Made by a program: the position numbers and the translations under genes. The notes under the pieces were generated by a model. It did not search any database. It saw nothing but the letters and a program-made list of their open reading frames with translations, and had not been told where the DNA came from. Of a stretch of 64,000 nucleotides of DNA, positions 4,256 through 46,151 are shown one piece after another (position 1 is the first letter of the stretch; each line of letters begins with the position of its first letter). The DNA comes from Spironucleus salmonicida (lineage: Eukaryota), in the NCBI RefSeq assembly GCF_000497125.1, contig NC_090601.1, positions 806,001 through 870,000 on the forward strand. The letters run 5' to 3'.

Positions 4256-6277
4256 TCACATCAACTGCAAATAGATTGATTTGAGCGCCCTGGCCTCCTC
4301 GCTGATGTTCTTTTCAGTCACACCCGCGAACCCGACTGCCGTGGGGTTAATGCTCATTTCCTCGCCGTATTTGATGACCTCGTCCAGGAACAGCAGAACA
4401 TGGTCGATGAGCTGCTCCTCGGCGGGGCCGCCCAGATTCATCGAGCAGGCCTCCGCGAGGCTCACGAGCGGCCTTTTGACGTACAGCCAAGAGTCGGGGC
4501 TGAGCTTCTCGCTCGTGGGCTCCATGGCCGCAATTATACGCCTAATACCGAACGGCATGTTCTGATTGATCGCGTAGAGTGCGCCCAGCACGATGTTCGT
4601 TATCGACAAATGCAGGAGCTGGTTCGACGATTCAGGCGAAACGTTCGTTATTTGCGTCTGCGCGGTGTCCACTTTCTGCATCAGCTGCTCGGCTAAGTTG
4701 TTCTGAGAGTTCAACACGTAACAAACGCAGAGATTCGCCACCGCGATGGCCGGAACGTCCAAAATGTTCTCCTGGCCGAGCGTATCGACGACCTCCTGGT
4801 ACTTTTCGAGCGCGTCCGCGTAATCTTCGTTAGCGAACAGAATATTGGCCTAATTGATCTTGTAGGAGGGGTGATCCTCGATCAAATCTTCGTATTGGCA
4901 AATAATGTGATACGCGCCTTTGTAGCGCTTCAAATTGTACAAAATCGACGTTTGCCAGGTAATCACGGGAATGAAGATCCCGAGCTTTTGCTCATATTGC
5001 TGCAGCAGCGTGTTGACCGCAATCTCCTCTTTAGACATCGTTTTCGCCTCGTTCGTGTTGAATCTTCCGGTAAATTCGTCCGCCGCTTGCTTGTTTTTGG
5101 ACGATTTTGAGCGCGTTTGCGTGATTTCCTAACGAATTCGTCTAAGCTGATTAGCATATCTCTGCTTCAGCTGATCCAACTGCGAATACGCTTCTTCTGG
5201 GCTCGCGATGCTCTAAACGACTGCCTAGAAAAATGCTTGCTTTTCGGGCTCCAAACTCGCCTGGCTCAGCTGCTAATTTTCAGCCATCAAATCAGCCGCC
5301 AGATCGAACAAACCGTGCTGAATGTAGATATTTATCAAGTTCTGAAATGCCTCCACCGGAAAAGGCGGCACCTGAATCAGAAATTGGAGCTTTTTGACGG
5401 CCTAACTCGGCTAATGCATCATCTCGCTGAGCGCCAAATTGTGCAGTGTAACAGGATCCAAATCCTCCTCTTTGCGATACGGCATGCTCTTCAGAGCGCG
5501 ATTTGCGGCGTATTCGTCGCCCAAATTCCACTCAATTGACGCCTTTAAGTTGAAGGCGTCGATGAGCGCAGAGCCGAGCAAATGGTTCAGATTTTGAATT
5601 ACAGTTTGACTTTCCACTTGTCCTGCGCCGTTGAAGCTCTGCGCCGCCTGGACGAGTTCCGGGTACTTCTTGGCGCTCAAATCGACCAAATCGCCGAGCG
5701 TTTTCAGGCAGTGCGGGTAGTCGCTTTGGCGGTAGAAAGCGACGGCTTTTGCGTAGAAAATTCGCGGGTCCGGGCAGATTTCGTTCGCTGCGTCGTAGAG
5801 GTCGATGGCCTCCTGGAACTTTTCCTGTTTGAGGAGCAAATTGGCCTTCAGAGCGAAGACGCGCGGGTCATCGGTGGGCGATTTTGTGAGCTTTTCGACG
5901 AGGTTCTGGAGGGCGTTAGAATCGTCGATATCGTGCTTGCAGTACGCCCTCAGAACGTCCGCGTCGTGCGAGTCGATTTTGAGCTGGAGCGCCTCGACGA
6001 GCATATCGGCCTTGTAGCGCGAGTTCGCTAGCGATAGCTGGTAGCGCTCGGAGTCTGGGTATTTCTTGACCAGTTGCTCGTAGAGAGGAATTGCGAGGTC
6101 GAATTCGCCCTTGTGGTAGTAGCAGTAGGCTAAAATGGAGCACGCTGGCGAGTTGTTGGGGAACATCTGAAGCTGGAGCTTCAGGACGTTGATAGCCTCG
6201 TCGAACTCTTGGTTTTCAATGTGCTTGTAGATAGTGCGCGTGAGCTGGCCTTCAGGGACCTGATAGAGTTACTGCAT
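4256..6277 (-). CDS. IFT70: Intraflagellar transport protein IFT70 / TTC30 (fleer/DYF-1) TPR protein, 673 aa
   Basis: One code-6 ORF joining in-frame track fragments 5411-6166, 4850-5038 and 4256-4762; family motifs VPEGQLTRTIY, ILAYCYY, AFNLKASIE, EEDLDPVTLHNLAL, AIAVANLCVCYVL, SWLYVKR, EEARALK. Confidence 0.93.
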
Positions 6278-6596
6278 TTTTGGTAGGAATTGGTGTGGTG
6301 GAAATAATAACATAGTAAGGATATAATAATAAGTTATTTTGTGTATTTTGGCTAGTGATGAAGATCTAATAGTAGGAAAAGATGCGAAAGGGTGTTAAGA
6401 TTGGGTAGTTAGTGCTATAATGATAATTTGATGGTAAAGATACGGAGTTGAAAACTTTTATCTGTATAACTTTACTGATTGTAATAGAACAATATAATTA
6501 AGGAACATAAATAAGTTGCAATAGCAGTATAGCTAGTATAAGTAATATGATTTATAATATCAAGTTAAATAAATAAACTACTTATTAAATCGTATT

Positions 6597-6884
6597 TCAC
6601 ATGCAAGTTTCGAGCATACTGACACCGTCAAAGGACTGTCGTAAGCTGTGTAGACCAGTGCGTGGATCTTGGATTGACAGGCTTTCAGCTTCCTATATTG
6701 ACAAGTTTATCATAGAATAGTTTATAAGTTGAGTGACACCTCCCTGGGAGGTACAACTTTCAGTTGCAACATGGCAGTTGTCTAGATATCCTATTTTCTT
6801 ATAGTTAGTATTTGCTTTATGCCAGAACTACTTAAATTTCGCATTTTATGGTCGTTCTTATAGTTTGGCAATACAGTTTCCCAT
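6597..6884 (-). CDS. Small putative dually acylated protein, 95 aa (MGNCIAK...DPRTGLHSLRQSFDGVSMLETCM)
   Basis: Code-6 ORF; 22 C-terminal residues identical to 45879-46151 with only synonymous codon differences. Confidence 0.82.
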
Positions 6885-7889
6885 TATTTAATAAAGTTTA
6901 AGATGATTTATTAGTTGTACAGGTGATAATAAAACTTTCGTTTCTACTATGAGTTTATAGTATGTATATAAAGCAGTATTTAGAAGTTTTAATTATTTAC
7001 AGAATAGTTGATTATCATATATATTTAAAGCAGAATTTAACATTTTATTCTATTTTTACTAGCAGAAAATATTTTGACTAAGTATACTTATTAGCTCTAT
7101 TTTAGATTAACATAAATAATGATTTTAATAATAATATCAATAATTTTTTAAATATAAAAACGCATTACATATATGATTTTGGCATTAAGCTGTTGTATAT
7201 AATTGAGACTGCTTAATATATTATGAAACTAATACTACAGTTAACTATATTTAATATAGGTACACAGTTAGAAACTCACACATACGATTTTTTGAATATT
7301 ACCACCAAATATATATTTAGTGAATAATTATTAATAAATTGAATAAGTAAATAATTAATAGAATATTCATAACTATATAGATAATTTACTTATTTTATTG
7401 ATAGGCCTATTACTATAATCATTTATATTAAATAATAATCTTATAATTAGTCAAAATGTGTAACTTTAGTAATAATGGGTTAACGCAAGTACTAGTACAA
7501 AATTTGCAGCTTAATTGTGTATTGATGTCATTAACTAAGATTAAAGGAATTAACTTGTCGCTATTATGCTAATATTTCAGGGATCAATTAATGATAGATA
7601 TTTATATAACGACTGGTTAACTGAATAGTGTTAGATTAAGAATTTCCAGTTATAAAGCATGAATTTGGTAAGAATTTCGAAGCTAATTACGAAATTGAAT
7701 AACATAGAATTTACTAGGATATTGATGCACGATTATAATGTATAATCATATTGATGCCAAATTTTCACTCTCTGGTACCGGAAGTCCTCTAAAATTTAGT
7801 GTTATCGATAAATTTATACTTTTGATAGCCGAAGGTAATTAGTTTGGCGTATGTAGCTTCCCATGCCACCAACTCCGCTAAAACATTTT

Positions 7890-10800
7890 TCATTCCCCGA
7901 TCAAGCGCATGAAGTCCTCCTCCAAGTCTATCTCGCATACATCATAGCTTTCCGATGCTACTTCGTTGTCAATCGCCCACTAGACCACCCGGCTCATCTT
8001 CAGCCCAAATAGGACGAAGTAATCGTCCCTCTCGCCTCTAGTGTATTACGCAAATTTGAGCCTAAATTCATCACGCTTCACAGAAATTTGCACCTGGAAG
8101 CAATTTTTCTCCCGCATGTTGTCCACACTGCCGCAGTAGTTAATGCGACCGTCTTTCAGCAAAACAACATCGTCGACCAGTTAAGCCACCTCGCTCAGGT
8201 CGTGCGTAGTGATGATAACGGTTTTACCTAGATGAATCAGCTTCTAGGTGGCAACCTGAATTACCTATTTAGTAAGCGCACCCAAACCTGTCGAGGGCTC
8301 GTCCAATGCGATTATATTTGCCTTGCTGGTCAGAGCGATTGCGAGAGATAGCTTTCGACGAATTCCTCCAGAAAGCGAGGAAATCAGAGCATTCCTGATA
8401 GCGCTCAGGTCCAGTAGCTCCAAAATTTGATCCACTTGGCTGGTTTCGTTGAAAATGGAGAATAGCTGCACAATTTAGGAAATGGTGAGACTTTCATAAA
8501 ATATATCGTGCTGCGGCACCATGGTGAAGCTCTTGTACTTGTGGTATGTTTTATAAAGGTCATATGGACCAATTACCGCTGCACCTTGATCAATCTATAT
8601 GATTCCCGCGAAGGAGTGCATAAGGGTGCTCTTCCCCGACCCGTTCGAACCCAGAAGCCCAAACACGCAGTTCTCTTTCACTGAAAAGGACACGTCCTTA
8701 AGCGCAAATTAGGATCTTTCATACTAATGCGTAACATTTTATACGTCGAAGAAGCTAGCGTCGCCATAATACTCGATCACATGCGTATCTAGAAGAGCAA
8801 CCTCAGACCTAGTCTTTTTAAATTTTAGGATCACTTTTATGATGAACATAATTCTATTTTACTATGCGACAAGGAAAAATACAAAGAACTACAAAAAGTA
8901 TGAGATAAAAATCGTTACATATAATTTCTATTACACCACTTGATGATGTATTACCAAGGATATAATGTAGCAGAAACCATATGCCGGTATCACAATAGAG
9001 ATTATCTGGGCAAATGAATCCGATGCTATTGTCATTATCTAGAATACGACCGCAAAGATAGTAATTAATAACGATACCACAGCCGCATACTTCCCGGAGT
9101 TCAGAATCTTTCCCATCAAAATACCAGTTGGGACACACGCTAGAGCCTGCATAATATACAGGCCTACTACAAATCCCGGATTGGGTAGATTTGCTAAAAT
9201 AGGATAGCATATGATCGCAATAATCAGAAGCGTAGCCAATGCCATTATCAAAGCAACAATGGTGTAAAATGTCGAATGGGCAAGAAACAATAGCGTCATC
9301 TTCACATTGTGGAAGTGGAAGAGTTTGTTGACTGCATTATCACAATCCATACCCGCAAGCTGGCCTGTAAAAAATAGAGGTAAAAAGCCTCCTATCAGTA
9401 AAACTACTATTGTTATTAAATTAGTAATCTCATTAGAATTATTTATCTCCATATTCGGCTAAATGCTTACATTCGAAAAACCTGGCATCTCGCTCTACTA
9501 TATAGAATAAGTGAAGTTCCAAGGAGAATAATCGATTGAATTGGCAAAAAGATACTTTCTAAATAATGCGGAGGTTTGTTGAGTTAACATATTATTTCCT
9601 ATATCATAAAATACAACTGGAGGATTACATGGCAGTCTCACAGTAGTATCATTTATCCATATCGACCTATCTATCCCTCTGGCTCCTATATATACTACAT
9701 ATGTCTCGTTAATATATAATCCATCACATTTATACTATAACTTGTCTGCTAGTTAAACTTCTAATGCATTTGCACCATACCAAAATATGTTTAATGGCAG
9801 TAGTAATGATATTTAAATATTAACATACTTACTATTTTATTTATTGAATTCTACTATACCAGATGAGTAAAGATTATTGTATAACTAGTTTAATATATCT
9901 GTAGTAGGTAGTGTATTATTTCCATTAAACTTTATATGAGAATTTTTACCTACAATATTATAATGATTAATTGCTTAAGCGGAAGTATTAAATACTTTGA
10001 TATTTTAATTTCTTATAACAAATTTTGATTAATAATCACATTTAAACTCTTGAATACATTATTATATACATTATATCAATTTAGGTTATTCCCCACATTT
10101 TAAAAATTAATTATCTCTGTTAATACAAGTTTACTTACAATATTCTAAATTATAGCATCCGGTCTCATTTCTAATATAATGATTGCCTATAACCAGCTAT
10201 TAAAGAGGAGCTAAATCAGGATATTTTAACGGGTTTACGACTTTACTATTTTCGTACAACTTATCATAGTCAAAATCTTCTAATTAGAAAGATTGTTCTA
10301 AAAGTTTATTTTATGTTTACTTTGAAATTTATGGAAGCAAATCATTACGCTTGAGAGGATCAACTACTAAATAGTTAAATACCATATCCTAATGAGATTA
10401 TCTATAGTCACCTAATGAAGTAATAGATCGAGAATAATAATCAAGTCCCAAAAATGTCGCATAGTAAATACAATATTGGTGTTCGAGTATATTAAAGGTA
10501 AATAATTCTTTCGGCCTTTCTTACAAACATTAATTAAGTACATTTTTAATAAGATTTTAATTATTTCCATAATGCTTATAACATTATAAATAGCACTAAT
10601 TAAATAAATATTATTTCGTATTATGATAATGCACTGTAATATTTCCATCTCCGGTGAGCCCTATCATCTTAACAAGTAATATATATGCCACTCCAAGAAA
10701 TAAAACAATAAATGACATCAAAAGTAATAATGCATATATGAACGATGTTTGGCCAGAGAAAAATTCAAGTCTAAACATGTTCTACACCAAAGCCATAAAT

Positions 10801-13496
10801 TTATTATTTATGTAACCACGCGACGTTTTTCGTTACTTTATAGTCTCCTATTTTTACAGTTCCATTTACAGCTTAACATAAGTATCTTAAAGTTTAAATT
10901 TCTATAGGGTATAAGTAGACACTATTTTATCATGCTCTAGGGTTTCTAATAATAAGTGGAGCTCTAAAAGCACCTACTGGGATATTTCGTTAAACTCAAG
11001 TTGTACAGAATGTCGACGAATACCTATAACAGTAAATTCATACGGAAAGAGCTCGCGTAGTTTTTCTTCAGTGAAGTTCTCGGACTCGAAGTTGAAGGTA
11101 AGTGAGTAGCCCTAAAACATTTACCGCACCTGGGGTAGCGTTTGGTTATGCTAGAATATCGCCCCGCGGTCTATGAAGTTGATTTTCTGCGCAATCTCCT
11201 CAACCTCCGTCATGTCGTGTGTAGTCAAAACTACCGAGCATTCGATCTTGCGAACAATCTCCCAGATCTTTCGTTTCAATATTGGGTCCACCCCAGCCGA
11301 AATTTCGTCGAACATGACGAGGTTGTTTGAGCCAACGATGGCGTTACAGCAGGCGAGTCTTCTCAGCATACCGCCACTGAGCCTCTTGGCGGTTCTTCGT
11401 TGAACGGACGGCGACTCTAGCCCTATAGTCGCGAGAAGGTCCTGGATGATAGCGCTCTACTCGGCGATTGATATCTTAGCACCAGTCCGGTATTGTCTGA
11501 GGCTGAAGGAAAACGCTACATTATTCAACACCGACATATCCAGGAAGACGTTGCTAAAGTCTTAGGGGCAGTAGCCGGTAAAGGGCTTTACCAAGTAAGC
11601 ATGAATCGAGTTTGTGAGGTCGAATGTTCCAAAAACAGTTGAGCTGCAAGAAGCCTACCTGTCCAACTGAACATCACCGGCGATCGCCCCAAGTAGGGTT
11701 GACTTTCCTGCGGAAGTTTCGCCAATGACTGCCGAGGATCCCTCTAGCAGCGAAAAACTACAGTTAGCAAGGCCAACTATTTTACTACGGCGCCAGACTT
11801 TCCATTTTCCTTTATATGTAACAGAAATGTTCTACAGATTAACATGGTTAGAATCTGGCACCAGCCTCCGCCATTACCATAGGTCCTTTTTCAAGAAGAA
11901 AAGTGGATGCAGACCATAGAAACCCTTTTCAGGAATTACATGGGCGAGGTAGATAATGAAAAGGAAAAAGAAAGCAGCAGAGAATCCCAGCACTAGGTAG
12001 AGATGCCAGTAGGTCACGTGCTGATATTTGCATATATGTCCAGCGTCTATGTTCTGGAGAATGCATAAGAATTACTTGGTACCTTATGTCGTAAGGAAGT
12101 TCAATGAAACAAGCGTTTATTAGGGTTTCCAGATGTAGCTACTCACATACTAGCTCTTTATATCCTTGCTTAGCGCAAAATACATGGAGTCATACACCAT
12201 GACTACTCCAAAAATCGGAACTAGAAAGGTAACTGTCCAGGTAATAGCCTAAGGAAGCATGGAAGGATCGAAGAATGTTGTTGAGAAAAATAAAGCCTAG
12301 TGGAAAACTATGGGCAGTAAGATCATCGCAAGACACATTATGCACACAAAAATAATTACACGCGTGCGCTAGCTACCAAAAATCACAGATATAAAATTTA
12401 CACCAACCGAGATAATTAAAGCAGATGCCAGAGCCGCCACCATGCAGAAACCAACAGTAATACCGGAAAAAGGCAATATGCCGACATAGTGGCCAAAGAC
12501 GAAGAAGGTTTCAGTGGATACCAAGGTTGGGACAAAAGTGAAAACCATAGCAGTAGTATAGAAAGAATGATGTAGCACTCCTAACCGCTTAAGAACCACA
12601 TGGATATTATCTCTGTTCTGCGTTGCGATGAAAGCTGCCATAAGAATGATAACAGTAAGCGAAAGCGAGTTAGCGATGCTAAAAAGAAGGTTGATATTCA
12701 TCACATTATCAACGCGTTGTTTCAATGGCTCTAGAAAGTTATAACTAATATGATAGTCTACTTTTGCGAAATAATCTACTAAATACTAATCGATTTACGT
12801 CTAAAGAGCTATTCCGTAACCTGTCCAAAATGCTTTCTTCCAACCAAATGTGAATTACTAAAACAATGGATCAGGCTATTCTACCAGTAATTTTTCTAAA
12901 AACGAATTGTTCACAACCACCTCGACCGTAAGGTTGAGCGGCATGTTCTAAATCATTTCCTCTGACTGTAGAATGTTAATATGAATGAATATTTCGTCAT
13001 TCAGGAGCGGACCTGAATATTATGGATACCTATTATGTAGATCGTCCTAGAAAGTATCTAAAAATGTGGAATTGCATGTATCCGCTACCTGCAATACATC
13101 ATCGCAGAATACCTACCTAGCAAATTCTACATCAAAACTTTGGTTAGTAAAAAGGTTCTTCTTAGCGAAGTAGCTATTTGCCTCCTCTGGAGACTCGAAG
13201 AATCTCGTTCGGTGGCCCTTAAGGCCATTTTTCGCTAGAACGAAGTCCAGCAAATCTCTTGTTAGCTCAGTGTTCGGAGAGGCTGACAGATAAACGAAAT
13301 TTTCGTTTTATGGAAGTTTCGGCAAGGTCGGTATGTCGATGTTTACTGAGTGGGAAGTAAACAGACTGTTAGAGATGAGAAATATCATGCCCGAAAGGCC
13401 TATCGCCATGAGAAGTGGCAGAATGAGTTATGCTACCACGATTACTGTCAGCGACTTCGCCCTAAATAGGAAAAACTAGCTTAAAGGCTTGTTCAT
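7890..13496 (-). CDS. Full-length ABCA-subfamily ABC transporter (TMD-NBD-TMD-NBD), 1868 aa
   Basis: Code-6 ORF of 5607 nt, all track fragments in frame; NBD1 GETSAGKST/LSGGMLRRL/VMFDEISAGVD/LTTH; NBD2 GSNGSGKST/LSGGIRRKL/IALDEPSTG/ITTH; large extracellular loop after the first TM of each half. Confidence 0.92.
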
Positions 13497-14969
13497 TTAT
13501 TATAATAATTAATTTTAACTATTTATATGTATACTCAAAATAAAATATATGCTTCGTCAAAAAATAGTACTAATATAGTTATGGGTCATAATAAGCTAAC
13601 TCGATGCTAAATATAATTCATTGAAATTTTTATATAGAATAACTTGTATTTAATAATAAGTTAAAAAAATTTTACATAGAAATATTATAAATTAACTATC
13701 TTGTATTATATTTATTCATTAAATTATTATTACTTTTCATATTTATAATTAATACTACTTTAACTAAATTATTTAATAAAAAATAATTAATTTTTTATAT
13801 CTAATATTTTTACACAAATATATAATAATAAACCTAAAAATGAACAACCTCTAATTTATAAGTTATCCTAAATAATAACATAATCATTCTTCTATATTTC
13901 ATTATATTATATAATGTATTTATTTTTAACTACAAAATAATTGTATATTTTTATTATTATAATACTGGGATATGATAACTACCCTATAATATAGAGTAAT
14001 GTAAAGCAAACATACGCTACTTCATCAAGTAAAATATATTAAAATCACATAAAAATTCAGAATGTTTATAGTTTTAATTATATAATATGAATAAGTACTT
14101 AAATAATAATCAAAAGTATTTTATTTAGAGGTACATTCATTATTTTTACTTAGTTTATAGCTTATTCGTCAGATCTATATTAATTTACTAAAATAATATC
14201 ATTTTCTATTTTTAATTTTTAAAGTAATAGTATTCAGTACAACATGAACAATACTATACACCAAATCGAAAAATTGCATTTGCCCTAAATATATTTTTGT
14301 GAAAAACTGAATTTATTTTATAACTGCTTACTCAGATGGATATAAAATTTTTATGATAATCATTCATCATTACATGTAGTTTGTTAGGTATATTCTTAAA
14401 ATATAATTTCATAGTAATTATACTATTTAAAAATATTCACAAATAAAGGAACGTATAATCTAGATTAAATTTGCGAAAATTAAACTATCAAGAAAATAAG
14501 TTTAAGATAATAAACAACGATCTCTGAAACTATTTTTAGTAAGAATTGTTAAATAATGAAGTAATACCGTTTAGATGTGTGTTCATATCTGTAAATTTAA
14601 GTCTTACTTATTTAGATTAACGCGCGACTACCATTCAGTAAATATAATATCATTGAAAATAACCATCTAATCGAGGAAATAAATTCCTCATTTGCTAAGA
14701 ATTAAAATTTTACGTGCAATATTAAAACTATTCACAATTAATAATTAATATTCCTTAATCATCAACACTCACTAAAGTCAATTTATACAAATAATCTACA
14801 TTTAATATGATTGATATAAATGTTAAAACTATTTAGGCATATCATTTAATGAAGATAAATGAAACATAAATATTCATCATATATTTCCGAGAACCAAACC
14901 TATAAACACTTTCCAAAGTAAAATATACATTGTGGTTTACTCATCTTTTACAAATATTTAGCACATAGT

Positions 14970-17175: not shown

Positions 17176-18812
17176 ATAATAGTGATTTTGCACAAAATAA
17201 GTGCGTAGAAATGTTGTTAGTTAGGCAGCTGGGCCTGAGTTAAAAAATAAGGATTTGTCAAAAGTTCATTTATAGAAAGTTCAGGTGAACGGGAATGAAT
17301 AAAATCATGATGCGAGTGATAAAGTTGAAAATGGAACTAAAAAGTTATAGTTAAGATGGTTATGGTTAACTGTGATCGAATACTTAGGATTTTCTGCAAT
17401 GGAATGTTGACTTATTTCTGACGAGATAGCATATTGGTCATGCAGTTGGTTTACTTTCAGTGATAGGCAATATCTTCAATAGAAGAAAATATTCTTAAAA
17501 ATAAAAAATCGTAGTCCAAATGTTAATCTGCCTCATTATTTGCAAACATATGTAAGATATTAGAAAGATTAATGTATCTTAAACATGGTCATACTATGTT
17601 GTGGTTGAATCTAATATGTATTATAATAAGCTTTTTTTGGGGTTCCTTTTTAAAGTAATGATTGTTCATTTACATTTAACGTATATAATTTTATATAATA
17701 TCTATTACTACTGCTTTGCTTCAAAAATTAAATCTGTAAAATGCGTGCGTTCATTAATTTTTTTTCTATAACTCAGAACCTTCTTGCATGATTGTTTATT
17801 GCAAATTTAAATCAATTAAATAAACTTCTTTGAATGTATGTATCATTCGGTTATTCTTTACTAACATTCTGTAAAAATGATAGCATTGGCATATATTATT
17901 GTATAAGATTATTATCCCTAATTCCATAATTAATTACTAGTGTATTATAGTTTATATTGTACCTTCGTTACATAATTCGATGAAGTGATTGAACGTTTCA
18001 TTGTTGCATAGCTGCAATTGTGTATCATTAGCATAACAACTAACACTTATAATTTTACTTTTAGTAGAATGCTACTATTTAACTAGAAAACTATTATATA
18101 TGAATTGCTAAATCTTTATAATACAAGTCAAACAATTAGTTTTCTCATTCATATCTTAAAAATATCTAATTTAACATTAAACCTTTATTATTAATAGAAC
18201 ATAACTGTATTATTGCTGTTTAGTTTTACGAAGAATCAAATTTTGTAAGCTAATCTATATTACTTAGTTTTTTTACTAAATAAATTAAATATAAATTTTG
18301 CTAAATTAAGAGAAATAAAGAAATATAAGTCATAATACTAAAATTTATAAATAAGTTTCTCTATTAAATTTCTTTAAAAACTAGAAAAAACTTGTTACCA
18401 TTGTGATTAAATTAGTATTTTTATGGTTAAAAATGAAACCCAAAAATACTAACTACTGTTAATTTGAAAATTATTAATACTTTTTATTCGAAACTTCAGA
18501 ATCTAAAATAATTGTATTGTTAATTAATATAAGTTTTGATATTAAGATTTTTATTATTATAAATAACTTGAAATAATAATAATAAATTCAACTATTAATA
18601 GAATCTAATACATTATTTTTCCTACTAATTTAATATAATTCAATTAACACCAATTAAAATTTACGTAGGTATAAAGTAATATACAATAATAATAGTATAT
18701 ATATAAAAACTTTTTAACATGCTTGATTATATGTAGTCTATTGTAATTAAAAACTTTCTACAACACTTTTATATTAGATTTAATGACTATTATTAAAATT
18801 AATAATTTTAAA

Positions 18813-20447
18813 ATGATGATCGTCTTACAATTTTCTTGTTTTAATTCTTCATCCTCAGTTGAGTACAATTACATATCTGCATCAGTCATATTTACAGCAT
18901 ATCCTCAATAAATAAAAAGTGAAATTTGTCAATATCTAGAAGGAAAAATTGCTATACCCACGCTAGCTTTAGGTAAAATTACATTTGTAGCTTCTCAAAT
19001 AGTGTTTTCATCTGATGAAAGATTAGTGTTGCGTTTAGAATGTCCAGCTGCTCCATGTATAGAAGAATGTAAACCCCCTATTGACATACCAAAATGTTAA
19101 TCGTGTAAAAATGCACGTTAAGCTGCATGTAAAGAGGCTGCAACAGCATCTATATCACAGATAACTTTTGATTTCCATACTGAAAGAATGTTAATGTAAT
19201 TCACACCTAGCATTTATTAGATCTTATCTTTTGATTCAGGAAATTGTTACGCAGAATATACATTATTGTACAGCTAAGAAAAACTAGTGTTTTCTGGAGT
19301 TCCCTTCCTTTGTATACTAGAACTCTCGGATAAAGTGAAAGGTCTAATGGCTTCTAAAACTTGCAAAGATCCGATAGATGGCATACCTCAGGATTGTCCT
19401 TGGGTTTAATTATTATTAAACGGTGATGCTATAAGCATTTAGCCTTATTATGAAGTAAATTTATTAGGAATGGGGCAGATTGACGTCGAATGCGATAAAG
19501 TTCTAGCTTCCGATTAGTTGAAATGTAGAAATTTTATGAAAGTAATAAATAGTAATTAGGAAAGTTTTGTTGAGTTTCAGTTAGCAGTTGCTGTAGAAAG
19601 GAATATAGGTAAAATGAAAACTATAGATATGCCTATTAATACTGCTATTTATTATAAAGGATCTGCTTAAATTGAGGAAGTACTTACTGTTTTAGATTGC
19701 TTCAAAGATGTTACAGTTTTAATGTACGAAGATCATATAGAAATATAATTAGTATTAAATTAAGCACCAACTTAATGCCCTAAAAAGAATTTTGATCGTG
19801 TAGAGATTGAAATATACGGTTCTACAGACGGTTATTATACTCTATAAAATTCGAACATTATAATAGACGAAAAAACGAGTAAGATATTCATGAATTCTAG
19901 CAATGCTGGGAACTAAACTGAATATGAAAATAATTTAACAATTGCATTACGTGGATAAAGAAAAAATCAACAAATGATATTACTTTTTATTTAAGATAAT
20001 CAAATTATGCTATAGTAAGAATTTAAAGTAAATGATAATTAAGAAACATAAAGAAACGCTATATTAACAGTACTTGATGAATAAATTTGTATATAGGCTA
20101 CCTAATTACCATGGTCCCCAGAAAAGTCTGGTACTATTATATTATAAATACAGGTAGAATTTTATAATCTAGTTTGGTAGTAATAGATTTAATAATCAAA
20201 CGAACCGTATTGTTATAAATTAAACCATAATGATGCAAATAATATTTATCATTTAATATCATAAGAAAATAATGATATAACTATAACTATTGACAATGAA
20301 ACTATTCCTATGTCCAGGTATGTTAGCTACCTCACCCCACGTATATTATGGAAGCAAGGTCTCATAATATTTTTAGGCAATTTAATGTTTACCATTTTAA
20401 TATGTATAATTCATCTTACAAGATTGCATAAAATAAAAATTAAGTGA
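18813..20447 (+). CDS. Cys-containing type-I membrane protein, 544 aa (AT-rich paralog of 26745-28394)
   Basis: MMIVLQFSCFNSSSSVEY...LVLRLECP...GVPFLC...PQDCPWV aligns along its length with 26745-28394; C-terminal TM; ends AAG-TGA. Confidence 0.88.
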
Positions 20448-21729: not shown

Positions 21730-22270
21730 TTTGATTGGATTTCTGATAGACTTAATAGGGCATAGAGCCAACATTACAATTCATATCTTGGAACAAATTT
21801 ACGGAAGTATAGCGCCAGTATTTCCCTAGTTGGTCAGACCGCATTTTAGTGCAAACGGCAGGACTTATTGGCTGGCAATGACCATTTATGCAGCACAGTC
21901 GTATGCACATGAAATAAGGGTAGCCATACCTAATGGGGGGGCTAGCCGATGTGCATTCACTATCCTACTAATTCAGTTACTAGTATCAAAATAAGCACCT
22001 TCGGTCTTAGTAGGCATAGAAGAAGTTAACGACAATCCCAGTTAAGATTTATCACTTAGTACTTATTTGCTGTCTATAATTGATAAACCAAATTATCCCA
22101 ACCTTAAGTCAAACCAATCTAAAAGTAAAATATCACTTCTTACCTTTCTTGATGAAGTAGAAGGCGAGCCCGCCGCCCACTGCGCCAGCTACCACCAGGA
22201 CCGCGATCACGATGCCCGCCACGGCGCCCCCGGAGAGCTTGTTGGATGAAGACTCCTGCACGGGTAGGAA
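21730..22270. repeat. Inverted duplication of ~2040-2580 (CRMP 3' end plus downstream DNA)
   Basis: Track ORFs 2060-2242(-) and 22067-22249(+) are nearly identical; identity decays beyond ~300 bp from the stop. Confidence 0.9.
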
Positions 22271-23254
22271 GCAGAATGTTCCGACCTTGGAGTACCCAGG
22301 GGCGCAGTCCTCGCATTTATTCTCTTTGAGGACGTAGCCAGGGAGGCAGGTGCCGCAGGCGGTGGGGGCCTTGGGCTTGCACTTGGCATCGGCGAAATCG
22401 TAGTTGGTGGAGTCAATGCAACCAGTGCATACTCCTTTATCGTCGTCGGCACAGGTACACAGGACATCCGTGCATGTTCCTGGCTCTGGTACGGGAACGA
22501 CGGGGCAGGCGAGGCAGTTCTTGGTGGTAACACCGCAATTGCATGCAGTCTGCTACCCAACAGCTCCACAGTCAGCGGCAGCAGAATTAAGGCATGTTTG
22601 GTTGACCTTCAATCCAGCACAAATTGTTGTACAAGTTTGGTCGGTGTTCATCTCGTGGGTATTCTTGCAGGTGGTGCACTGGGTTGCGCTGCTGCAGTTT
22701 GCGCAATCGCCAGAGCAATCAGTGCATCTGTTCCCTATTGCCAACATACTGCAGAACTTTCCAGCTTTACAGGGAGTCTCTGCATCGCACTCGTCTTTGT
22801 CGCATTTAGTCCCCTTGATAACGAATCCATCGTAGCACGCCGAGCAGGTCTCACCAGCATCACATTATTTACAGTTCGCCGGACACGCTTTGCAGGCACC
22901 CCTGGCAAGTCCGAAACCGTCGTCACAGTTTGTGCAAACATCTGCTCCGGTGCAAGTTTAGCAATTTGAGGAGCAGGCGGTACACGCACTATCCTTCAAC
23001 ATGAAACCGTCGTCACAGTTTGTGCAAACGGTGCTAGAAGTGCAAGTGCCGCACCCCGCGGAACAGGCGCTGCATGCGCTACCATCTAAAATGAACCTAG
23101 GTAAGCATTCCGTACAGGTGCCCAGAGCGTCCTTAGTGCAGGTCTTACAACCGGCTACCGTACACTTGGCGCAGTCCTATGACATAGAAGTTAGTTCTCC
23201 TGGACAAACAAAGCCGTCTGGGCAATCTGCACCAGTTTTGCACGTCTCTGGCAT
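22133..23254 (-). CDS. Cysteine-rich membrane protein (CRMP), 373 aa
   Basis: [12 protein letters not shown]... CxxC repeats, TM, KKGKK-TGA; 3' end and downstream DNA nearly identical to those of 1205-2176. Confidence 0.92.
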
Positions 23255-23315
23255 TTTGGTGGAGTGGGAATTCGACTTCACGCCTAGGACATGCGCGGAT
23301 ACTTATATACACCAC
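23255..23315 (-). promoter_or_regulatory. Putative CRMP core promoter: TATATAAG ~50 nt upstream plus C-rich CCCACTCCACCAAA-ATG
   Basis: Similar C-rich leaders precede IFT70 (CCACCACACCAATTCCTACCAAAA-ATG) and CRMP 30442 (CATACCACCCCAAA-ATG). Confidence 0.45.
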
Positions 23316-23595
23316 AACGCAGAGTGCAAGTATAAAGATTCGAACATAATGTTGTGGTTTGCAGAGTATTATTATAGTAATACAATCACGATAGCCTACC
23401 TAATTATCCTGTCGCGAATCACTCAAATTGTTGAAACCGTTTTTGGAGTGGTTTTGAAAGTACGTATATTGGCTAATATACTCGCCCGCCAGGCCACCAG
23501 ACGGGAGCCGCCCTGCCCCCCGCTGGGCTGGTGTGCGCCAATGCATGCTCTGAAGCTGCCCGCGGAACGCTCCGCACTGGCGTATATGAATACCC

Positions 23596-24165: not shown

Positions 24166-25217
24166 TTATCATGTAATCTAATTTTATCTTCCACAACCGA
24201 AACCGCTGGCCTCACAAACGCCCCTTATACGCCCTCCACCACCACAATTTAACTTCAGAAGCACATTTCTCACCATTTAACCTGTATTATCATGCATATT
24301 AACTACTACTCTGCATTACACCATTGCACTATTACCCGTTACGCGCTGAACCGTTCCGACAGAGAATACGAATATTCCTTATTTTGCCTATCTAGCATCA
24401 TACTGTCTTCTCAGCCCTGAAATCTCCAGTCTCACCGAATTGCGGAGGTGCCCGTTATATCATACTAAAAACTTCAATTTCCCTTCCAAAACGCGAGAAA
24501 CCCGCAGCGAAATCGTCGCATTCTGGCACTCATAATTTCCAGTTTCAGCCAGAAACTTGACGTGCTAAAGCGCTGCAAATCGCGTGAAAATCGCGTTTCG
24601 GCCTGCTAGGAACTGCGCAAACTGCGATTTCCAGCATGTTAAATTTTCGGGTGCTCGTTATCGCTTTGGCTGAGCGTGTTTAGCAAATATTAATGCTAAT
24701 AAGCAGTGTATGGGTTATATCGGTCAGGAGTGCAGTTTACGCGGTTCTAGAGGTGAAAATTTGACTATTCGCAGGGTGTGTAAAAATGATTTTTGGGGTC
24801 GACTTAGAGGGAGAGGATTTCGTTTTTGCGGAATTTTTTGAGCGTTATATCAGTTAAGGAGAGGTAGTTAAAGTGCGAAAAGCGTCGTGTGCGCGATTTC
24901 AGTTTGCTCGAACTGATATAAGGCGAGGGCGGGAAAGCGAATTTCGAGTTTTGGTGAAAATGAGGTGGAGTGTGAACAGCTTCGGTGTAATTTTTAGCTA
25001 TTTCGCTATTCAAGGGTAATTTTATTAGTCAGCGGTCTAGCACTTTTTGTCAGGCTAATTAATTGTAGTTGAAGCTACTGCGGGCGAAAAATTAGCGCAT
25101 ATTGTCAGCCCAACCAGCTCGCACCTTAAGCTGCACTGTATTTACAGCTTCCATTTCGTGTTAATTGAATTGTTTATAGATATTTGCATTTCATTTTCTG
25201 CAACTTTAACCTCATTT

Positions 25218-25961
25218 TCACTCATAGTCTTACCATGGTTGGGTATAAATTATGGTTTTCCTGCTACTAGCCGCTGTTTGCAACCTTTTTTCGACGCAGC
25301 TAATCGCTGCCCCAATTAAGCAAATTAGGATAATGACACACATAACCACAATCTCGCTACATGAAAGCGTGGATTACGATCCAGTTCCGGGACACAGGTC
25401 CTCGGGAATGCAGTACGATGCGTAGCGGACAAATGTTTGGGCGCAACGCTCGCAGCTGCCACCTTCTAGCACGTAGCCAGGGAGGCACGTCTGACATTAA
25501 ATTGGCGCGGCTGTTGAAATTTTGCACGTCATGCAGTGCTATGCAGCCGCACCGCAATTGCAGCGCATTTTCTGGCCCGTAACGCCGCAACGTTGGGCGG
25601 TTTGGTCTACGCAGGCCTGGTTCAAATCCAAGTGCTGGCAGATTTTCGTGCAAGTCCTGTCGGTGTTGATTTCATAGTTTCTGTTGCAGCGAAAGCAGAC
25701 GCCGCTGAGGCAATCGTAGCATTCTAGGGTGCAGCCTGGGCTGGTTCTGTAGGAAGCTAGGCTTTTCAGGGGCTCAGCGAGCGGGTGAGATATCACGCAG
25801 GTTTTCTCGAATAGTATGAAGCCATGTTGGAATTTGTCGCAGCCTTATAGGTTCGTGCACGTTTCACAGTTCGCAATGCCGCACTTTATGAACTTAGGCG
25901 GTTTTGCGACACCCCCAGTTTGGGTAGCCGCGGCTGAGGCGCTTGAGCCAGCTCCTGGCAT
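25218..25961 (-). CDS. Divergent short CRMP, 247 aa, with longer cytoplasmic tail
   Basis: Code-6 ORF MPGAGSS...CETC...YEINTDRTC...CNCGAAAQHCMTC...CLPGYVL...TM (IVVMCVIILICLIGAAISCV)...QDYE; ends GAG-TGA. Confidence 0.82.
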
Positions 25962-26744
25962 TTTACGGGAAGAGTTTTGAGGGTGGGCCGGTAAATCTGG
26001 AATATCGAGTAAACTAAAAAACGATTTGGTGAACAATGCTAAGTATACTTTGTTATAGTTTGAATTTAAGTTTTAGCAGAAGTGGAGAGGAATAAATAAT
26101 TTATTTGCTGCTATATGCAAGTGCGACCAGTGAAGATGAAAAAAGAGTTAAAAAGTATCTTTTGGACATCAACGACACTTTATTGCAAAATCGGAGCGGT
26201 ATTATTCTACGAGTAATATCTGGATTTTATTAATTATTTTATATCGCGTATTATATCCATACTGGAATCATTTTAATTTCCACATAAAACGCAAAAGCTT
26301 AAAGTTTACGATTTTTACAAACATTTATCTATTATCTTATAATATACATATTAATGTTGATTTTTAATTCAAGCATATTCTACAGCAATGAATCAGCTGA
26401 CTAATGCAGAGTTTTTTGGTGTGGTCTCTATGAGGAAATAGATTAGTAAAGATTTATTGAGTCCAGTACCTATATAAATATTTAGTAGTCCGCTAGTATC
26501 TACCTCGTTCACCCCTGAGGCTTTTAGCACGTTGCCGAAATAAATTTATACATTTAATTTTTATTATATATTGTTTTTATATAATAAAATTGAATACTTT
26601 AGATAATGCATGTTTATCCAAGGTTAGATCCCAACATGCGGTTATAGATGAAAATTCATTATGCATCGTATTTTGATAATATATTAACACATATCATGCA
26701 GTTTTATATATAATGTTGATACTTATAGGTCAAATTACACGAAA

Positions 26745-28394
26745 TCACTATGTTTATTACCCAGGTTATGAATGATTTCTAGCGCGCATGTGCGCAATTA
26801 AAAATATTAAAACTGCAAAACTAGACTATCCAATGAACATTACTACTAATTACTTCCAGAATATTGAGGTAAGTCTGGCGTCATTAATAATGAAAATAGG
26901 CAGATATTCTTATTCAATGTTAACATAGGATATAGTGTCTTACTGTTTTAGAAGATTTGAAATAGCGCCTGATTCTTATTTAGTGATCGAGTTGCAATAT
27001 TGTTCGTCCCTATTTGATAATTATTACTACCAAGCAAACTCATAGTTACCTATATGGATCATTATCATTGAATCATGTGTTATTTATACTACCCAAGGAA
27101 GTGGTTAGGCGGAAATACAGATTTATGTGTCAAATACGAACAATGTTATGTTTCGGTACGTTGTCAGAGCATTGTTTATCTTGTAGTACTCTTCCAGGGT
27201 CACTATGTCGTTTTGGATATATTAGATATAGAGGTACTAGGCGCTCCGCCTGCCGTCCAGCGCGATGGTGAGGTTCCCGCCGAACTCGGTGGCGTTCTCC
27301 GCATTCGTAGTATTCAGTATTACGCTCCCATCTTACTCTGGCAGGCTGGGCACCTCGTTGCTCAATTTGTAAAACTGCGTCGTGACGCCCTGGATCTGCA
27401 GCAGAGCGCGGTCGTAGACGTGTTGCTGGCAGTTCACCGCACCCGCGTTGGCGGCGAAGGTGACGCTCACATGGTCCTGGAAGGCGCTCAGTGAGATGAC
27501 CTAGTAGCAATCCGCGTCACCTTCTAACTCTTCTACCAGCGCTTCACCGGTGAAGTAGATCGCAGAGGCGACCGGCATGTCGACTGCGGCGGTCTTTCCG
27601 ATATTCCTCTCCGCCGCAACCGCGAGCTGGAAGTGGACCGTGCTCTCCAGATTGCTGTTCGCCACGCCCAGCACCTCCTCGCACTTAGGCTGGAACGCAG
27701 GCAGCACGTGCGCGCAGTCCACCTCGACCACCGTGAGGCCCAGCAGGTCGGCCTCGTAGTACGGCGCCACGTTGAGCACCTCTCCGTTCACGACGAGCTG
27801 CACCCACGGGCAGTCCTGGGGCACGCTCCCTATCGGGGGCTTGCACTGCTTGCGCGCCATCAGCGCCCTCACGGCGTCGGAAAGCTGCAGCTGGCAGAGG
27901 AACGGGACCCCGGTGAAGACTATCTTCTCGGGGAAGTAGTGAATGGTGTAGCCGAGCAGGCAGCTCCGCGCGTCAAGCGACTGCACCAGGTAGATGCCGG
28001 GCGAGAACACCATCTGGACCTGCTCGGCGTGGAAGTCGAACTGGATACTCGCTATGGAGGCCAGGGCCGCCTCCTGGCACGACCACTGCCGACCTTGCTA
28101 GCACGCGCGGCAGCTGTCTGCGTCCAGCGGCAGCGCGCACGCGGCAGTGCAGAGGGCGGTGGGGCACTCTAGGCGGAGCACCAGCGGGCTCGTGGCCGAG
28201 AAGGCGATGCTGCTGGCGACGAACACCGTTCGCCCCAACGTGAGGGTGGGAACCGCGAACCGGCCGTCCAGGTAGCGGCAGATGTCGGACTGTAGCGCCA
28301 GTGGCTGCGCCGTGAAAGTGGCGGATGCCGAGGCGTAGTCGTACTGCACGGAGGAGGCCGAGTCGAAGCAGGTAAACTGCAAAAGGTGGAGCAT
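26745..28394 (-). CDS. Cys-containing type-I membrane protein, 549 aa
   Basis: Joins in-frame track ORFs 28098-28394 and 27501-28013 through TAG; C-terminal TM; ends TAG-TGA; paralog of 18813-20447. Confidence 0.88.
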
Positions 28395-28771
28395 TTAGTT
28401 TTTCGTAATAATGTATAACCAATAAAATTTATAGGCTTGCCTATATTAAAAATTGCGAAAATATATTTTTAGGGGCAAAATAATAGAATTCAGATAGTAA
28501 AAAGTGTATATTAAATATACTTATTATTGTAAATAAAAGGCTATCATAGCGAAACTAAATTTTACTGTTTCCCTAGAAAATGATTCTAATGGAGTAACAA
28601 AAACTATTATTGATAGAACAAAGCATTTTTCTCGCAATAATCAATTTAGGTTAGCGATATTTTGAGTAAAAATTATAAAGTCACTTATAGTATATATTAG
28701 GGTTGGTTAAAGAGATTTAAGTTTTATTGAAGGAGTTTGATAAAAGTGGAAACATTCATTCTAATACTAGG

Positions 28772-28987
28772 TCACTTCCGCGCCCACTGAGCCAGCCACC
28801 GCCAGGACCGCGATCACGATGCCCCCGGCTAGCTTGTTGGATGAAGACTCCTGGGCAGGTAGGAGGCAGAAGGACCCGACCTTGGTGAATTCGGAAGCGC
28901 AGTCCTCGCACTTGGCGTCCTTGAGAAGGTAGCCGTGAAAGTGGCGGACGGGGAGTCGAAGCAGGTGAGATGCAAAAGGGGGGCCAT
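28772..28987 (-). pseudogene. Chimeric fragment: 5' end of the type-I membrane protein gene fused to a collapsed CRMP 3' end
   Basis: ATGGCCCCCCTTTTGCATCTCACCTGCTTCGACTC..CCGCCACTTTCACGGC matches the start of 28394; what follows (TACCTTCTCAAGGACGCCAAGTGCGAG...GCGGAAGTGA) matches the CRMP 3' end, out of frame. Confidence 0.85.
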
Positions 28988-29393
28988 TTGATTCTGTAAA
29001 CTAGCCTTACTCTTGTAGATTAAGAGGGTGAGCCTAGTCTGGTGGAAAATGTTATAATGGGTTTTAGTGTATATTGATTAGTAGGTAATGAATAATAATT
29101 TGGAATAAAAGTTTATATTGAAGGGTATAATAATTAATAATAGAAAAATAGTATACAATTACTAAACCAAAAACTTCAAATATATAATAGTACGTATATA
29201 AGAAATAGCATTTCTATATTCTGAGCCAGCGGATTAGTGTTGAGATTAGGTTCAATTAGCTTATATTAGCAAAATATAAATATTGATGGCGCCTACTAGT
29301 AAGCTACTATTGTTAGTTGGCTCCACACAAAATTGATTAACCCGTTAGAGCTAACGGACTCTAGCTTATCTGAGGTTTCCCAAAACTACTAAA

Positions 29394-30442: not shown

Positions 30443-30777
30443 TTTGGGGTGGTATGAAAATGTTATTTTTTATATGAAACTCCTACTCAGAATCATATTT
30501 TTACATAGGTATATAAAGTAAATACGAAAATTTTGAAACGTATTGTTACCTTATTAGGTGTATATTACTATACTAAGCAAAAATAGTAATATCTCCAAAA
30601 ACTGCTTTGGAAGGATATTTTAGGATATTGGATATTCTGGGGACATAATTTCATATTACCATATATCTAAAATAAAACGGAAAGCTGAATCTGCTTTAAT
30701 GTCGTAATAATATAATATGCAATTTTTAGAAACCCTTGCTGTATTGTATCGGCTAAGTATATGATGTTAGAATACCC

Positions 30778-31905: not shown

Positions 31906-32246
31906 TTTGGTGGAGTGGGAATTCGACTTCACGCCTAGGACATGCGCGGATACTTATATACACCACAACGCAGAGTGCAAGTATAAAGATTCGAACATAA
32001 TGTTGTGGTTTGCAGAGTATTATTATAGTAATACAATCACGATAGCCTACCTAATTATCCTGTCGCGAATCACTCAAATTGTTGAAACCGTTTTTGGAGT
32101 GGTTTTGAAAGTACGTATATTGGCTAATATACTCGCCCGCCAGGCCACCAGACGGGAGCCGCCCTGCCCCCCGCTGGGCTGGTGTGCGCCAATGCATGCT
32201 CTGAAGCTGCCCGCGGAACGCTCCGCACTGGCGTATATGAATACCC

Positions 32247-45878: not shown

Positions 45879-46151
45879 ATGGGTAACTGCATTAGCAATA
45901 TGGAAACAAGTATCAAAGACGAGATTGAGCGCAACATCCTAGGAATCTATTAGAATATAGCTGAAATTTTCCCTACCAGAACACAAGAACACCAGTGCGA
46001 TATATGTGAATACTCTAAGCTGATCACCTACTCCATCACCAGTACTGTGTTCGAAGAACCAGACAACTCACTCATTGAAGATCCCCGAACTGGTCTGCAC
46101 AGCTTGCGGTAATCCTTCGACGGCGTTAGTATGCTGGAAACCTGCCTATGA
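45879..46151 (+). CDS. Small putative dually acylated protein, 90 aa (MGNCISN...DPRTGLHSLRQSFDGVSMLETCL)
   Basis: Paralog of 6597-6884 with shared MGNCI start and identical 22-aa C-terminal block. Confidence 0.82.

What the first reader, a model, noticed from the sequence alone, without database searches (positions are those of the whole stretch)
6597..6884. Acylated microprotein pair with an invariant 22-aa C-terminal motif under purifying selection
Seen: 6597-6884(-) and 45879-46151(+) both start MGNCI, have largely unalignable middles, and end with identical DPRTGLHSLRQSFDGVSMLETC(M/L). In those 22 codons, 11 differ synonymously (CCA/CCC, CGC/CGA, CTA/CTG, TTA/TTG, CGA/CGG, CAG/TAA, TTT/TTC, GGT/GGC, GTC/GTT, CTC/CTG, ACT/ACC) and none non-synonymously. 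Known: MGxC is a typical myristoylation plus palmitoylation signature. Inference: membrane-tethered peptides that present a conserved short binding motif on a flexible linker. Both are invisible in the standard-code ORF track.
Basis: partly seen in the sequence, partly recalled or inferred. Interest (0 to 1): 0.8.

Follow-up and report, generated by a model that had tools for sequence, protein, structure and literature searches.

The report
Two lipid-anchored microproteins sharing one tail
Two tiny genes in a diplomonad (fish-parasite) genome encode proteins of about 90 residues that share only a lipid-anchor signal at the front and an identical 22-residue tail, which has stayed unchanged while its silent codon positions drifted to saturation, so the tail is a functional piece whose partner is still unknown.

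Summary
Read with TAA/TAG = Gln, 6597-6884(-) gives 95 aa and 45879-46151(+) gives 90 aa. Both start MGNCI and both end DPRTGLHSLRQSFDGVSMLETC plus M or L. In the 22 shared codons, 11 differ (12 bases) and no residue changes (chance about 4e-8). Eight of 11 four-fold sites differ, so silent sites are saturated. The middles, the flanks and the nucleotide sequence elsewhere show no similarity.

The sense frame is the best of six by conservation, and by codon usage in both copies (weakly in A). I read these as an ancient pair of real protein genes. Their N-terminus fits an N-myristoyl plus S-palmitoyl signal, and their C-terminal block is under very strong purifying selection.

Lipidation, the partner and the site in the cell are inferred, not shown. 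The "flexible linker" is not supported. No relative turned up in Pfam, PDB sequences, 1.84 billion representative proteins or metagenome contigs, but close relatives of this species are poorly represented there. Both gene models already exist in public protein collections. No paper in the held library contains the tail. Interest is moderate: a clean selection signature on an orphan two-member family.

The parts
6597..6884 (-). Copy A: coding sequence of a 95-aa protein (P0001), including the TGA stop. Four in-frame TAA/TAG are read as Gln.
   Evidence: best of six frames by codon usage, but only marginally (-0.2 bits against -3.8 to -13.5), and the only frame without TGA
6870..6884 (-). Copy A: MGNCI codons. 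Gly2 is the predicted N-myristoylation site and Cys4 the predicted palmitoylation site.
6603..6668 (-). Copy A: the 22 codons of the invariant C-terminal block (Asp73 to Cys94), followed by Met95 and TGA.
6564..6913 (.). Stretch around copy A covered by contigs of public runs X1, X2 and X3 (library kind only guessed as RNA). It spans the whole ORF plus 29 nt before the ATG and 33 nt past the stop. No joints were found.
   Evidence: tables 5 and 8
45879..46151 (+). Copy B: coding sequence of a 90-aa protein (P0002), including the TGA stop. Two in-frame TAA/TAG are read as Gln. The MGNCI ATG is the first ATG of its stop-to-stop frame.
45879..45893 (+). Copy B: MGNCI codons, preceded by AAA and, further upstream, an AT-rich TATA-like stretch.
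   Evidence: promoter features as described for S. salmonicida in PMC3916229
46080..46145 (+). Copy B: the 22 codons of the invariant C-terminal block (Asp68 to Cys89), followed by Leu90 and TGA.

Best explanation
Copies A and B are an ancient pair of paralogous protein-coding genes of a Spironucleus-type diplomonad, read with TAA/TAG = Gln. Each makes a protein of about 10 kDa with no transmembrane segment. Shown: the coding frame, and purifying selection that is extreme on the first 5 and last 22-23 codons and undetectable in between. Inferred: after Met1 is removed, Gly2 is N-myristoylated and Cys4 is S-palmitoylated, so the protein sits on the cytosolic face of a membrane. In diplomonads such dual-acylation signals have been linked to flagellar localisation, so the flagellar or plasma membrane is the likeliest site. 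Also inferred: the invariant C-terminal block is the working end and docks a conserved partner over an extended surface. Its free hydrophobic C-terminus (-E-T-C-M/L-COOH), an R-x-S site and a D-x-x-x-M-L stretch are candidate contact or regulation points. The divergent middle gives each paralogue its own properties. In short, these would be lipid-anchored recruiters that bring one partner to a membrane.
For: Frame and selection:
- 11 of 22 codons differ with 0 residue changes, P about 4e-8.
- 8 of 11 four-fold sites in the block differ, which is close to the 3 in 4 expected at full saturation (rows).
- One pair is CAG/TAA, which is silent only under this code.
- Six-frame control: sense 0 of 22 residues changed, four other frames 8-11 changed.
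- MGNCI has 2 silent differences.
- There is no similarity in the middles or flanks, so gene conversion or recent copying cannot explain the identity.
- The codon-usage score is highest in the sense frame for both copies. The margin is clear in B (13.0 bits against 7.5 to -25.0). In A it is small and the sense score is about zero (-0.2 against -3.8 to -13.5).

Gene-like context:
- Both models exist in public protein sets.
- Contigs of 3 of 4 runs cover the whole of A with short flanks and no joints. One of them carries a further change, A>G at 6644, which by my reading is TTA>CTA, Leu81, silent.
- B has AAA before its ATG and an AT-rich stretch upstream, as described for S. salmonicida genes.

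Acylation:
- Both fit M-G-{EDRKHPFYW}-x-x-[STAGCN]-{P} (pattern recalled).
- Only 3 of 909 Met codons followed by at least 60 sense codons in the window start MGxC or MGC, and two of these are A and B.
- BnaCPK30, whose N-terminus is MGNCIACV, is predicted to be both myristoylated and palmitoylated (PMC4000008 Table 1).
- Passages of PMC4863580 attribute lipid-modification-dependent localisation of Giardia alpha-19 giardin to Saric et al. 2009, whose title, as listed there, places it in the ventral flagellum pair. They also report S. salmonicida annexins 3 and 12, with predicted signals resembling it, at the flagellum.
- There is no hydrophobic segment (maximum Kyte-Doolittle over 19 residues is 0.58-0.59).
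Against: - No lipid, protein product or localisation has been observed.
- The organism's N-myristoyltransferase and palmitoyl transferases could not be checked because no genome is held.
- The kind of the four runs is only guessed, so transcription is not shown.
- 22 invariant residues is much longer than usual linear motifs.
- The middles are not linker-like in composition, which fits a small fold as well as it fits a tether.
- AlphaFold gives no confident structure (pLDDT 44, pTM 0.22).
- The antisense frame whose third positions coincide is nearly as conserved (1 of 21 changed).
- The motif readings (PDZ-type C-terminus, dileucine-like stretch, basophilic kinase site, 14-3-3 mode III) are recalled consensus patterns matched by eye, not tests.
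- No orthologue was found in any collection, so conservation across species is a prediction, not an observation.
Confidence: 0.55

Rival explanations
1. They are real proteins, but the C-terminal block is not a linear docking motif on a linker. It would be part of a small fold or metal site built together with the middle, or a second membrane contact in which the penultimate Cys is also acylated, so that both ends are pinned.
For: - Each copy has exactly four Cys at matching places: Cys4, two in the middle (37 and 44, or 40 and 43), and the penultimate residue. Each also has His38 and a His inside the block.
- The middles are 34-36% hydrophobic with aromatic residues.
- The low-confidence model is helical rather than extended.
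- A 22-residue invariant stretch suits a structural element.
Against: - The middles share no detectable similarity, which is unusual for a common fold.
- The model confidence is too low to count.
- No Pfam or PDB sequence match was found.
- The penultimate-Cys ending is not a known prenylation box (recalled).
Confidence: 0.2
2. The conserved element belongs to the opposite strand (an antisense ORF) or to the nucleic acid itself, and the MGNCI frames are by-products.
For: - The antisense frame with coinciding third positions changes only 1 of 21 residues.
- That frame is open across copy B (0 TGA).
- Contigs cannot tell the strand.
Against: - That near-conservation is the expected shadow of third-position changes in the sense frame.
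- The antisense frame has no ATG before the block at copy B and no shared start or stop.
- It still shows one residue change, against none in the sense frame.
- Its codon-usage score is lower than the sense frame in both copies.
- The bases themselves differ at 12 of 66 positions with a period of three, which argues against an RNA or DNA element.
- The sense frames share both a start peptide and a stop one codon after the block.
Confidence: 0.03
3. They are chance ORFs, decaying fragments of a larger gene, or a block kept alike by gene conversion.
For: - ORFs of this size are common under a one-stop code: 337 ATG ORFs of at least 60 aa in the window.
- The window is rich in duplications.
Against: - Silent-only divergence at saturation cannot arise in decaying or converted sequence.
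- No larger protein carries the block among 1.84 billion representatives, nor in the search of longer proteins.
- Start and stop are kept in both copies.
Confidence: 0.03

Closest known systems
Dual-acylated diplomonad proteins: Giardia alpha-19 giardin and S. salmonicida annexins 3 and 12 (PMC4863580, passages read; Saric et al. 2009 was not held)
   Same: Same group of organisms. An N-terminal Gly plus nearby Cys signal is predicted or reported to be myristoylated and palmitoylated, and is linked to localisation at flagella.
   Different: Those are annexins of normal size with Ca-binding repeats. A and B have no annexin or other domain and carry an unrelated invariant tail.
Plant calcium-dependent protein kinases with MGNC N-termini, e.g. 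BnaCPK30 MGNCIACV (PMC4000008, Table 1 and passages)
   Same: The first six residues are identical to copy A (MGNCIA). Two programs predict myristoylation and palmitoylation.
   Different: Those are kinases of about 60 kDa. The likeness is confined to the acylation signal and is not homology.
Toxoplasma ISP1-3 (PMC2936552; only the search listing and the start of the abstract were seen)
   Same: A small family of proteins confined to one phylum. That paper holds the terms dual acylation, myristoylation and palmitoylation. That N-terminal acylation does the targeting is my recollection.
   Different: No sequence similarity was found. ISPs are longer and, as I recall, have a folded domain. They have no shared C-terminal block.
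Small acylated anchoring adaptors of animals such as AKAP18-alpha (AKAP7) and LAMTOR1/p18 (recalled; no call)
   Same: The proposed working principle: a short protein held on a membrane by N-terminal myristate and palmitate that presents a binding segment for a soluble partner.
   Different: Unrelated in sequence, and their partners are known. Here the partner is unknown and the conserved segment sits at the extreme C-terminus.

Membership tests
N-myristoylated, S-palmitoylated (dual-acylated) proteins | Met1-Gly2 at the true N-terminus | tested here: met
   Both translate MG.... At copy B this is the first ATG of the frame. At copy A an upstream in-frame ATG exists, but it lies outside the contig cover, which ends at 6913.
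N-myristoylated, S-palmitoylated (dual-acylated) proteins | Residues 3-7 compatible with N-myristoyltransferase: G-{EDRKHPFYW}-x-x-[STAGCN]-{P} (pattern recalled) | tested here: met
   Both match. Residue 6 is Ala in A and Ser in B.
N-myristoylated, S-palmitoylated (dual-acylated) proteins | Cys within a few residues of Gly2 | tested here: met
   Cys4 in both. Only 3 of 909 candidate starts in the window begin MGxC or MGC.
N-myristoylated, S-palmitoylated (dual-acylated) proteins | Lipids actually attached; the enzymes present in the organism | not testable with these tools
   No genome is held and no experiment is possible. The literature supports dual acylation in diplomonads.
CaaX or Rab-type prenylated proteins | Cys four residues from the end (CaaX), or a CC/CXC-type ending (recalled) | tested here: not met
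   The endings are -ETCM and -ETCL, with a single Cys at the penultimate place.
Class I PDZ-ligand C-termini (x-S/T-x-hydrophobic-COOH; recalled) | Thr or Ser at -2 and a hydrophobic last residue | tested here: met
   T-C-M and T-C-L. The only residue that differs in the tail is the last one, M or L, and both are hydrophobic.
Class I PDZ-ligand C-termini (x-S/T-x-hydrophobic-COOH; recalled) | A PDZ-domain partner in the same organism that binds it | not testable with these tools
   No genome is held.
Any curated protein family or solved structure | Significant sequence match | tested here: not met
   The best Pfam E-values are 0.05-0.18, far below the cut-offs. PDB sequences gave 0 matches at E <= 10. 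Among 1.84 billion representatives only the two copies themselves matched, plus two chance hits.
Genes read with the Hexamita-type code (TAA/TAG = Gln, TGA the only stop) | In-frame TAA/TAG at positions where a paralogue has CAA/CAG; TGA stop | tested here: met
   CAG in A pairs with TAA in B inside the invariant block. Both copies end in TGA. The neighbouring protein is 100% identical to a record named for Spironucleus salmonicida.

The most novel reading that the evidence does not exclude
The 22-residue tail is a previously undescribed, diplomonad-specific docking module. The two dual-acylated microproteins would use it to recruit the same conserved cytosolic partner to two different membrane domains (for example different flagellar pairs or the plasma membrane), with the divergent middles setting the address. 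That would be a new peptide-partner system in a deeply divergent eukaryote.
Probability: 0.3. Interest if true: 0.6.

Novelty: new variant of a known kind. Interest (0 to 1): 0.4.

Why it matters
Small ORFs are the least understood part of protist genomes, and in organisms with reassigned stop codons standard tools miss them easily. This pair carries an unusually clean internal proof of function: an identical peptide over saturated silent sites. It also comes with a testable handle, since the tail peptide can serve as bait and the G2A and C4 mutants as localisation controls. If the tail recruits a conserved partner to flagellar or surface membranes, it would open a small, tractable piece of diplomonad membrane biology in a genetically manipulable fish parasite. 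If not, it is still a good test case for calling microproteins by paralogue comparison.

Tried and rejected
- **Whole genome:** none is held, so further copies and the acylation enzymes could not be sought.
- **Cluster members and source names of the two proteins:** the query could not be made.
- **Homologue searches:**
  - The near-length word search found only the two copies.
  - The search of longer proteins scored 14 candidates and none passed.
  - The profile search of 1.84 billion representatives gave two extra hits.
    - P0003 is a bacterial BspA-type LRR/fn3 protein that matches the variable middle.
    - P0004 is a 117-aa tandem-repeat ORF with 10 of 15-16 identities per repeat at about 25 bits each. 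That is far below significance for a library of this size, and its score is inflated by four repeats.
    - I rejected both as chance.
- **Metagenome contigs:**
  - 156 pattern matches, none confirmed.
  - A degenerate DNA pattern for ten tail residues gave two loci, L001 and L002. Both read an internal F-D-G-V-R-M-L-E-T-C inside a long frame with unrelated neighbours, so I rejected them as chance.
- **Other protein libraries:** Pfam, PDB sequences and ESM Atlas features gave nothing. The Atlas structure rows rest on a model with pLDDT 0.45 and were ignored.
- **AlphaFold2 on the two-row alignment:** pLDDT 44, unusable.
- **Sequencing runs:**
  - No RNA holder is listed.
  - The four holders come from one study and their kind is a guess.
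  - Parts without cover (about 6269-6563 and 6914-7761 in most runs, and all of copy A in X4) are not used as evidence.
  - Contig depths differ more than ten-fold between neighbouring contigs, but the tool warns that depths cannot rank genes. I therefore count transcription as not shown.
- **Shuffle-based score test of the middle regions:** not run. BLASTP by reference took its place.
- **Shared AAACTTT upstream of both ATGs:** the 7-mer is not enriched (28 found, 23 expected), so I dropped it as a promoter claim.
- **Rfam and tRNA scans of the window:** nothing.
- **Earlier findings of this scan:** nothing by place, sequence or words.
- **Saric et al. 2009:** not held.
- **Literature:**
  - No paper in the held library contains any of three strings from the tail. 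MGNCI occurs only in unrelated plant CDPK, venom-peptide and other papers.
  - Searches on Spironucleus or Giardia with myristoylation or palmitoylation listed nothing on such microproteins.
  - Supplements are closed, so lists of predicted acylated proteins there could not be seen.
- **Complex prediction:** not used, because no partner is in hand.

Full report
**What is there.**
- Read with NCBI table 6, window 6597-6884(-) gives a 95-residue protein (P0001) with four in-frame TAA/TAG codons.
- Window 45879-46151(+) gives a 90-residue protein (P0002) with two.
- Both end at TGA. Both begin MGNCI. Both end with the same 22 residues, DPRTGLHSLRQSFDGVSMLETC, followed by Met in A and Leu in B.
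- Whole-length BLASTP gives 36 of 95 identities, almost all at the two ends.
- With the ends cut off, the 67- and 62-residue middles give no alignment at E <= 100.
- A pattern scan of all six frames finds the tail and the MGNC start only at these two places in the window.

**Is it more than chance?**
- In the 22 shared codons, 11 differ by 12 bases and no residue changes.
- With 16 synonymous and 50 non-synonymous sites, the chance that 12 random changes are all silent is about 4e-8. None of 200,000 simulations achieved it.
- Eleven differences lie at codon position 3. The twelfth is the first base of CAG/TAA, which is silent only if TAA means Gln.
- Of the 11 four-fold degenerate codons in the block, 8 differ (rows). 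That is close to the 3 in 4 expected at full saturation, so the duplication is old.
- The five MGNCI codons add two more silent differences.
- At the DNA level the middles and the 300 nt on either side score no better than shuffled sequence.
- Recent copying or gene conversion would give identical bases, and decay would give residue changes. Neither fits. This is purifying selection on a translated peptide.

**Which frame?**
- The six-frame control gives 0 of 22 residues changed in the sense frame. It gives 1 of 21 in the antisense frame whose third positions coincide with those of the sense frame, and 8 to 11 in the other four.
- The near-conserved antisense frame is the expected shadow of third-position changes.
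- It has no ATG ahead of the block at copy B, and it shares neither a start nor a stop between the copies.
- A codon-usage score trained on five confident genes of the window is highest in the sense frame for both copies: A -0.2 bits against -3.8 to -13.5, and B 13.0 against 7.5 to -25.0. For A the margin is small and the sense score is about zero, so this supports the sense frame only weakly there.
- At B the MGNCI ATG is the first in its frame.
- At A an upstream in-frame ATG exists in AT-rich sequence.

**Organism and setting.**
- The neighbouring gene at 4256-6277(-) encodes a TPR protein that is 100% identical to a public record named for Spironucleus salmonicida. Its more distant relatives are named TTC30 or IFT70.
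- The window also holds Cys-rich membrane proteins that match Pfam VSP, and two copies of an ABC transporter.
- Copy B has AAA directly before its ATG and an AT-rich stretch further upstream. Copy A ends ...ATG TGA, with T and G before the stop.
- Both features match what the S. salmonicida genome paper describes for gene starts and for the combined stop and poly(A) signal (PMC3916229, passages). Copy B ends CTA TGA and lacks the G.

**Are they expressed?**
- The run search listed four holders from one study. Their library kind is only a guess.
- Contigs from three of the four together cover 6564-6913: X1 6645-6913, X2 6564-6773 and X3 6645-6815. That is the entire ORF of A with 29 nt before the ATG and 33 nt after the stop, and no joints. 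X4 has no contig there.
- One X2 contig carries A>G at 6644, which by my reading is TTA>CTA at Leu81 inside the tail, again silent.
- Because the runs may be DNA, I do not count transcription as shown. Copy B could not be examined.

**Do they have relatives?**
- Both proteins are already in public protein collections, on a contig of 1,673,122 bases. The ESM Atlas holds P0002 letter for letter. So the gene models are not new.
- Nothing else matches:
  - Pfam.
  - PDB sequences.
  - The word-index search at near and longer lengths.
  - The profile search of 1.84 billion representatives. Its two extra hits are a bacterial LRR protein and a tandem-repeat ORF, and I reject both as chance.
  - Two scans of metagenome contigs, whose only two hits are an unrelated internal match.
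- This absence is weak evidence for lineage restriction.
  - The closest non-self relatives of the conserved neighbouring TPR protein in the same collection are only 51% and 48% identical, so close relatives of this species are not represented.
  - By inference, short ORFs cut by TAA/TAG would not be called in assemblies annotated with the standard code.

**How it most likely works.**
- The N-terminus meets the sequence rules for N-myristoylation of Gly2, with small uncharged residues and Ala or Ser at position 6. Cys4 is placed for palmitoylation (rule recalled).
- Such starts are rare here: 3 of 909 Met codons followed by at least 60 sense codons. The third is an out-of-frame ORF overlapping B.
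- The hexapeptide MGNCIA heads canola CPK30, which two predictors score as myristoylated and palmitoylated (PMC4000008, Table 1).
- For diplomonads I read passages of PMC4863580.
  - They state that lipid modification is a factor in the localisation of alpha-19 giardin, citing Saric et al. 2009. That paper's title, as listed there, places it in the ventral flagellum pair.
  - They also state that S. salmonicida annexins 3 and 12, predicted to carry a similar signal, localise to the flagellum.
- Neither protein has a hydrophobic segment.
- I therefore propose lipid-anchored proteins on the cytosolic face of the flagellar or plasma membrane, whose invariant tail binds a conserved partner.
- By recalled consensus patterns the tail contains a T-x-hydrophobic free C-terminus, where the only variable residue is M or L. 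It also contains an R-x-S site and a D-x-x-x-M-L stretch. These are leads, not tests.

- The middles are 34-36% hydrophobic, with aromatic residues and two Cys each. All four Cys and two His sit at matching places in the two copies. A small fold or metal site is a fair rival to a "flexible linker".
- Twenty-two invariant residues is long for a linear motif.
- AlphaFold2 on the two-row alignment is uninformative (pLDDT 44).

**Verdict.**
The coding and selection claims are strong (about 0.9 that these are translated genes under selection).
- The acylated-tether mechanism is plausible but untested, with overall confidence 0.55.
- No paper in the held library contains the tail strings, and four topical searches listed nothing on such microproteins. 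Supplements could not be seen.
- I rate it a new variant of a known kind, namely small N-terminally acylated membrane adaptors, of moderate interest.

Noticed in passing
window 7418-13543 and 53149-59274: A large inverted duplication, 96-98% complementary. Each arm holds an 1868-aa ABC transporter ORF (Pfam ABC_tran) with 84-85 in-frame TAA/TAG codons. It is far younger than the A/B pair, and neither microprotein gene lies inside it.
   Followed up: partly
window about 24786-33436 and 33437-42087: A tandem duplication with a period of 8651 nt. It carries Cys-rich membrane protein genes that match Pfam VSP and a 600-aa ORF with no Pfam family. Further diverged copies of the Cys-rich genes lie at 22133-23347 and 40898-42073.
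   Followed up: partly
window 18783-20447(+): By eye, this 554-aa ORF is an AT-rich, diverged paralogue of the 600-aa ORF at 26745-28547(-). It has 32 in-frame TAA/TAG codons and lies in a region of about 25% G+C, against 42-45% for its partner.
   Followed up: no
window 45532-46023(+): A third ORF with a Gly2/Cys3 start (MGCF..., 163 aa) begins 347 nt upstream of copy B and overlaps it out of frame. Most of it is AT-rich and Gln/Leu-rich, so it is probably chance.
   Followed up: partly
window 6893-6899(-) and 45867-45873(+): The heptamer AAACTTT lies 9-15 nt and 6-12 nt upstream of the two MGNCI start codons. It is not enriched in the window as a whole (28 found, 23 expected).
   Followed up: yes
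window 46152-46195(+): Directly after the stop of copy B the sequence turns G+C-rich and holds a short inverted repeat (CCAGA...TCTGG). This differs from the AT-rich sequence after copy A.
   Followed up: no
window 5500-6268 and 7762-8300: Contigs of all four runs over the neighbouring TPR gene stop at 6267/6268, nine bases inside the ORF from its ATG at 6277. In two runs sequencing-adapter letters follow directly. Contigs over the ABC gene begin at 7762-7787, downstream of its stop at 7890.
   Followed up: no
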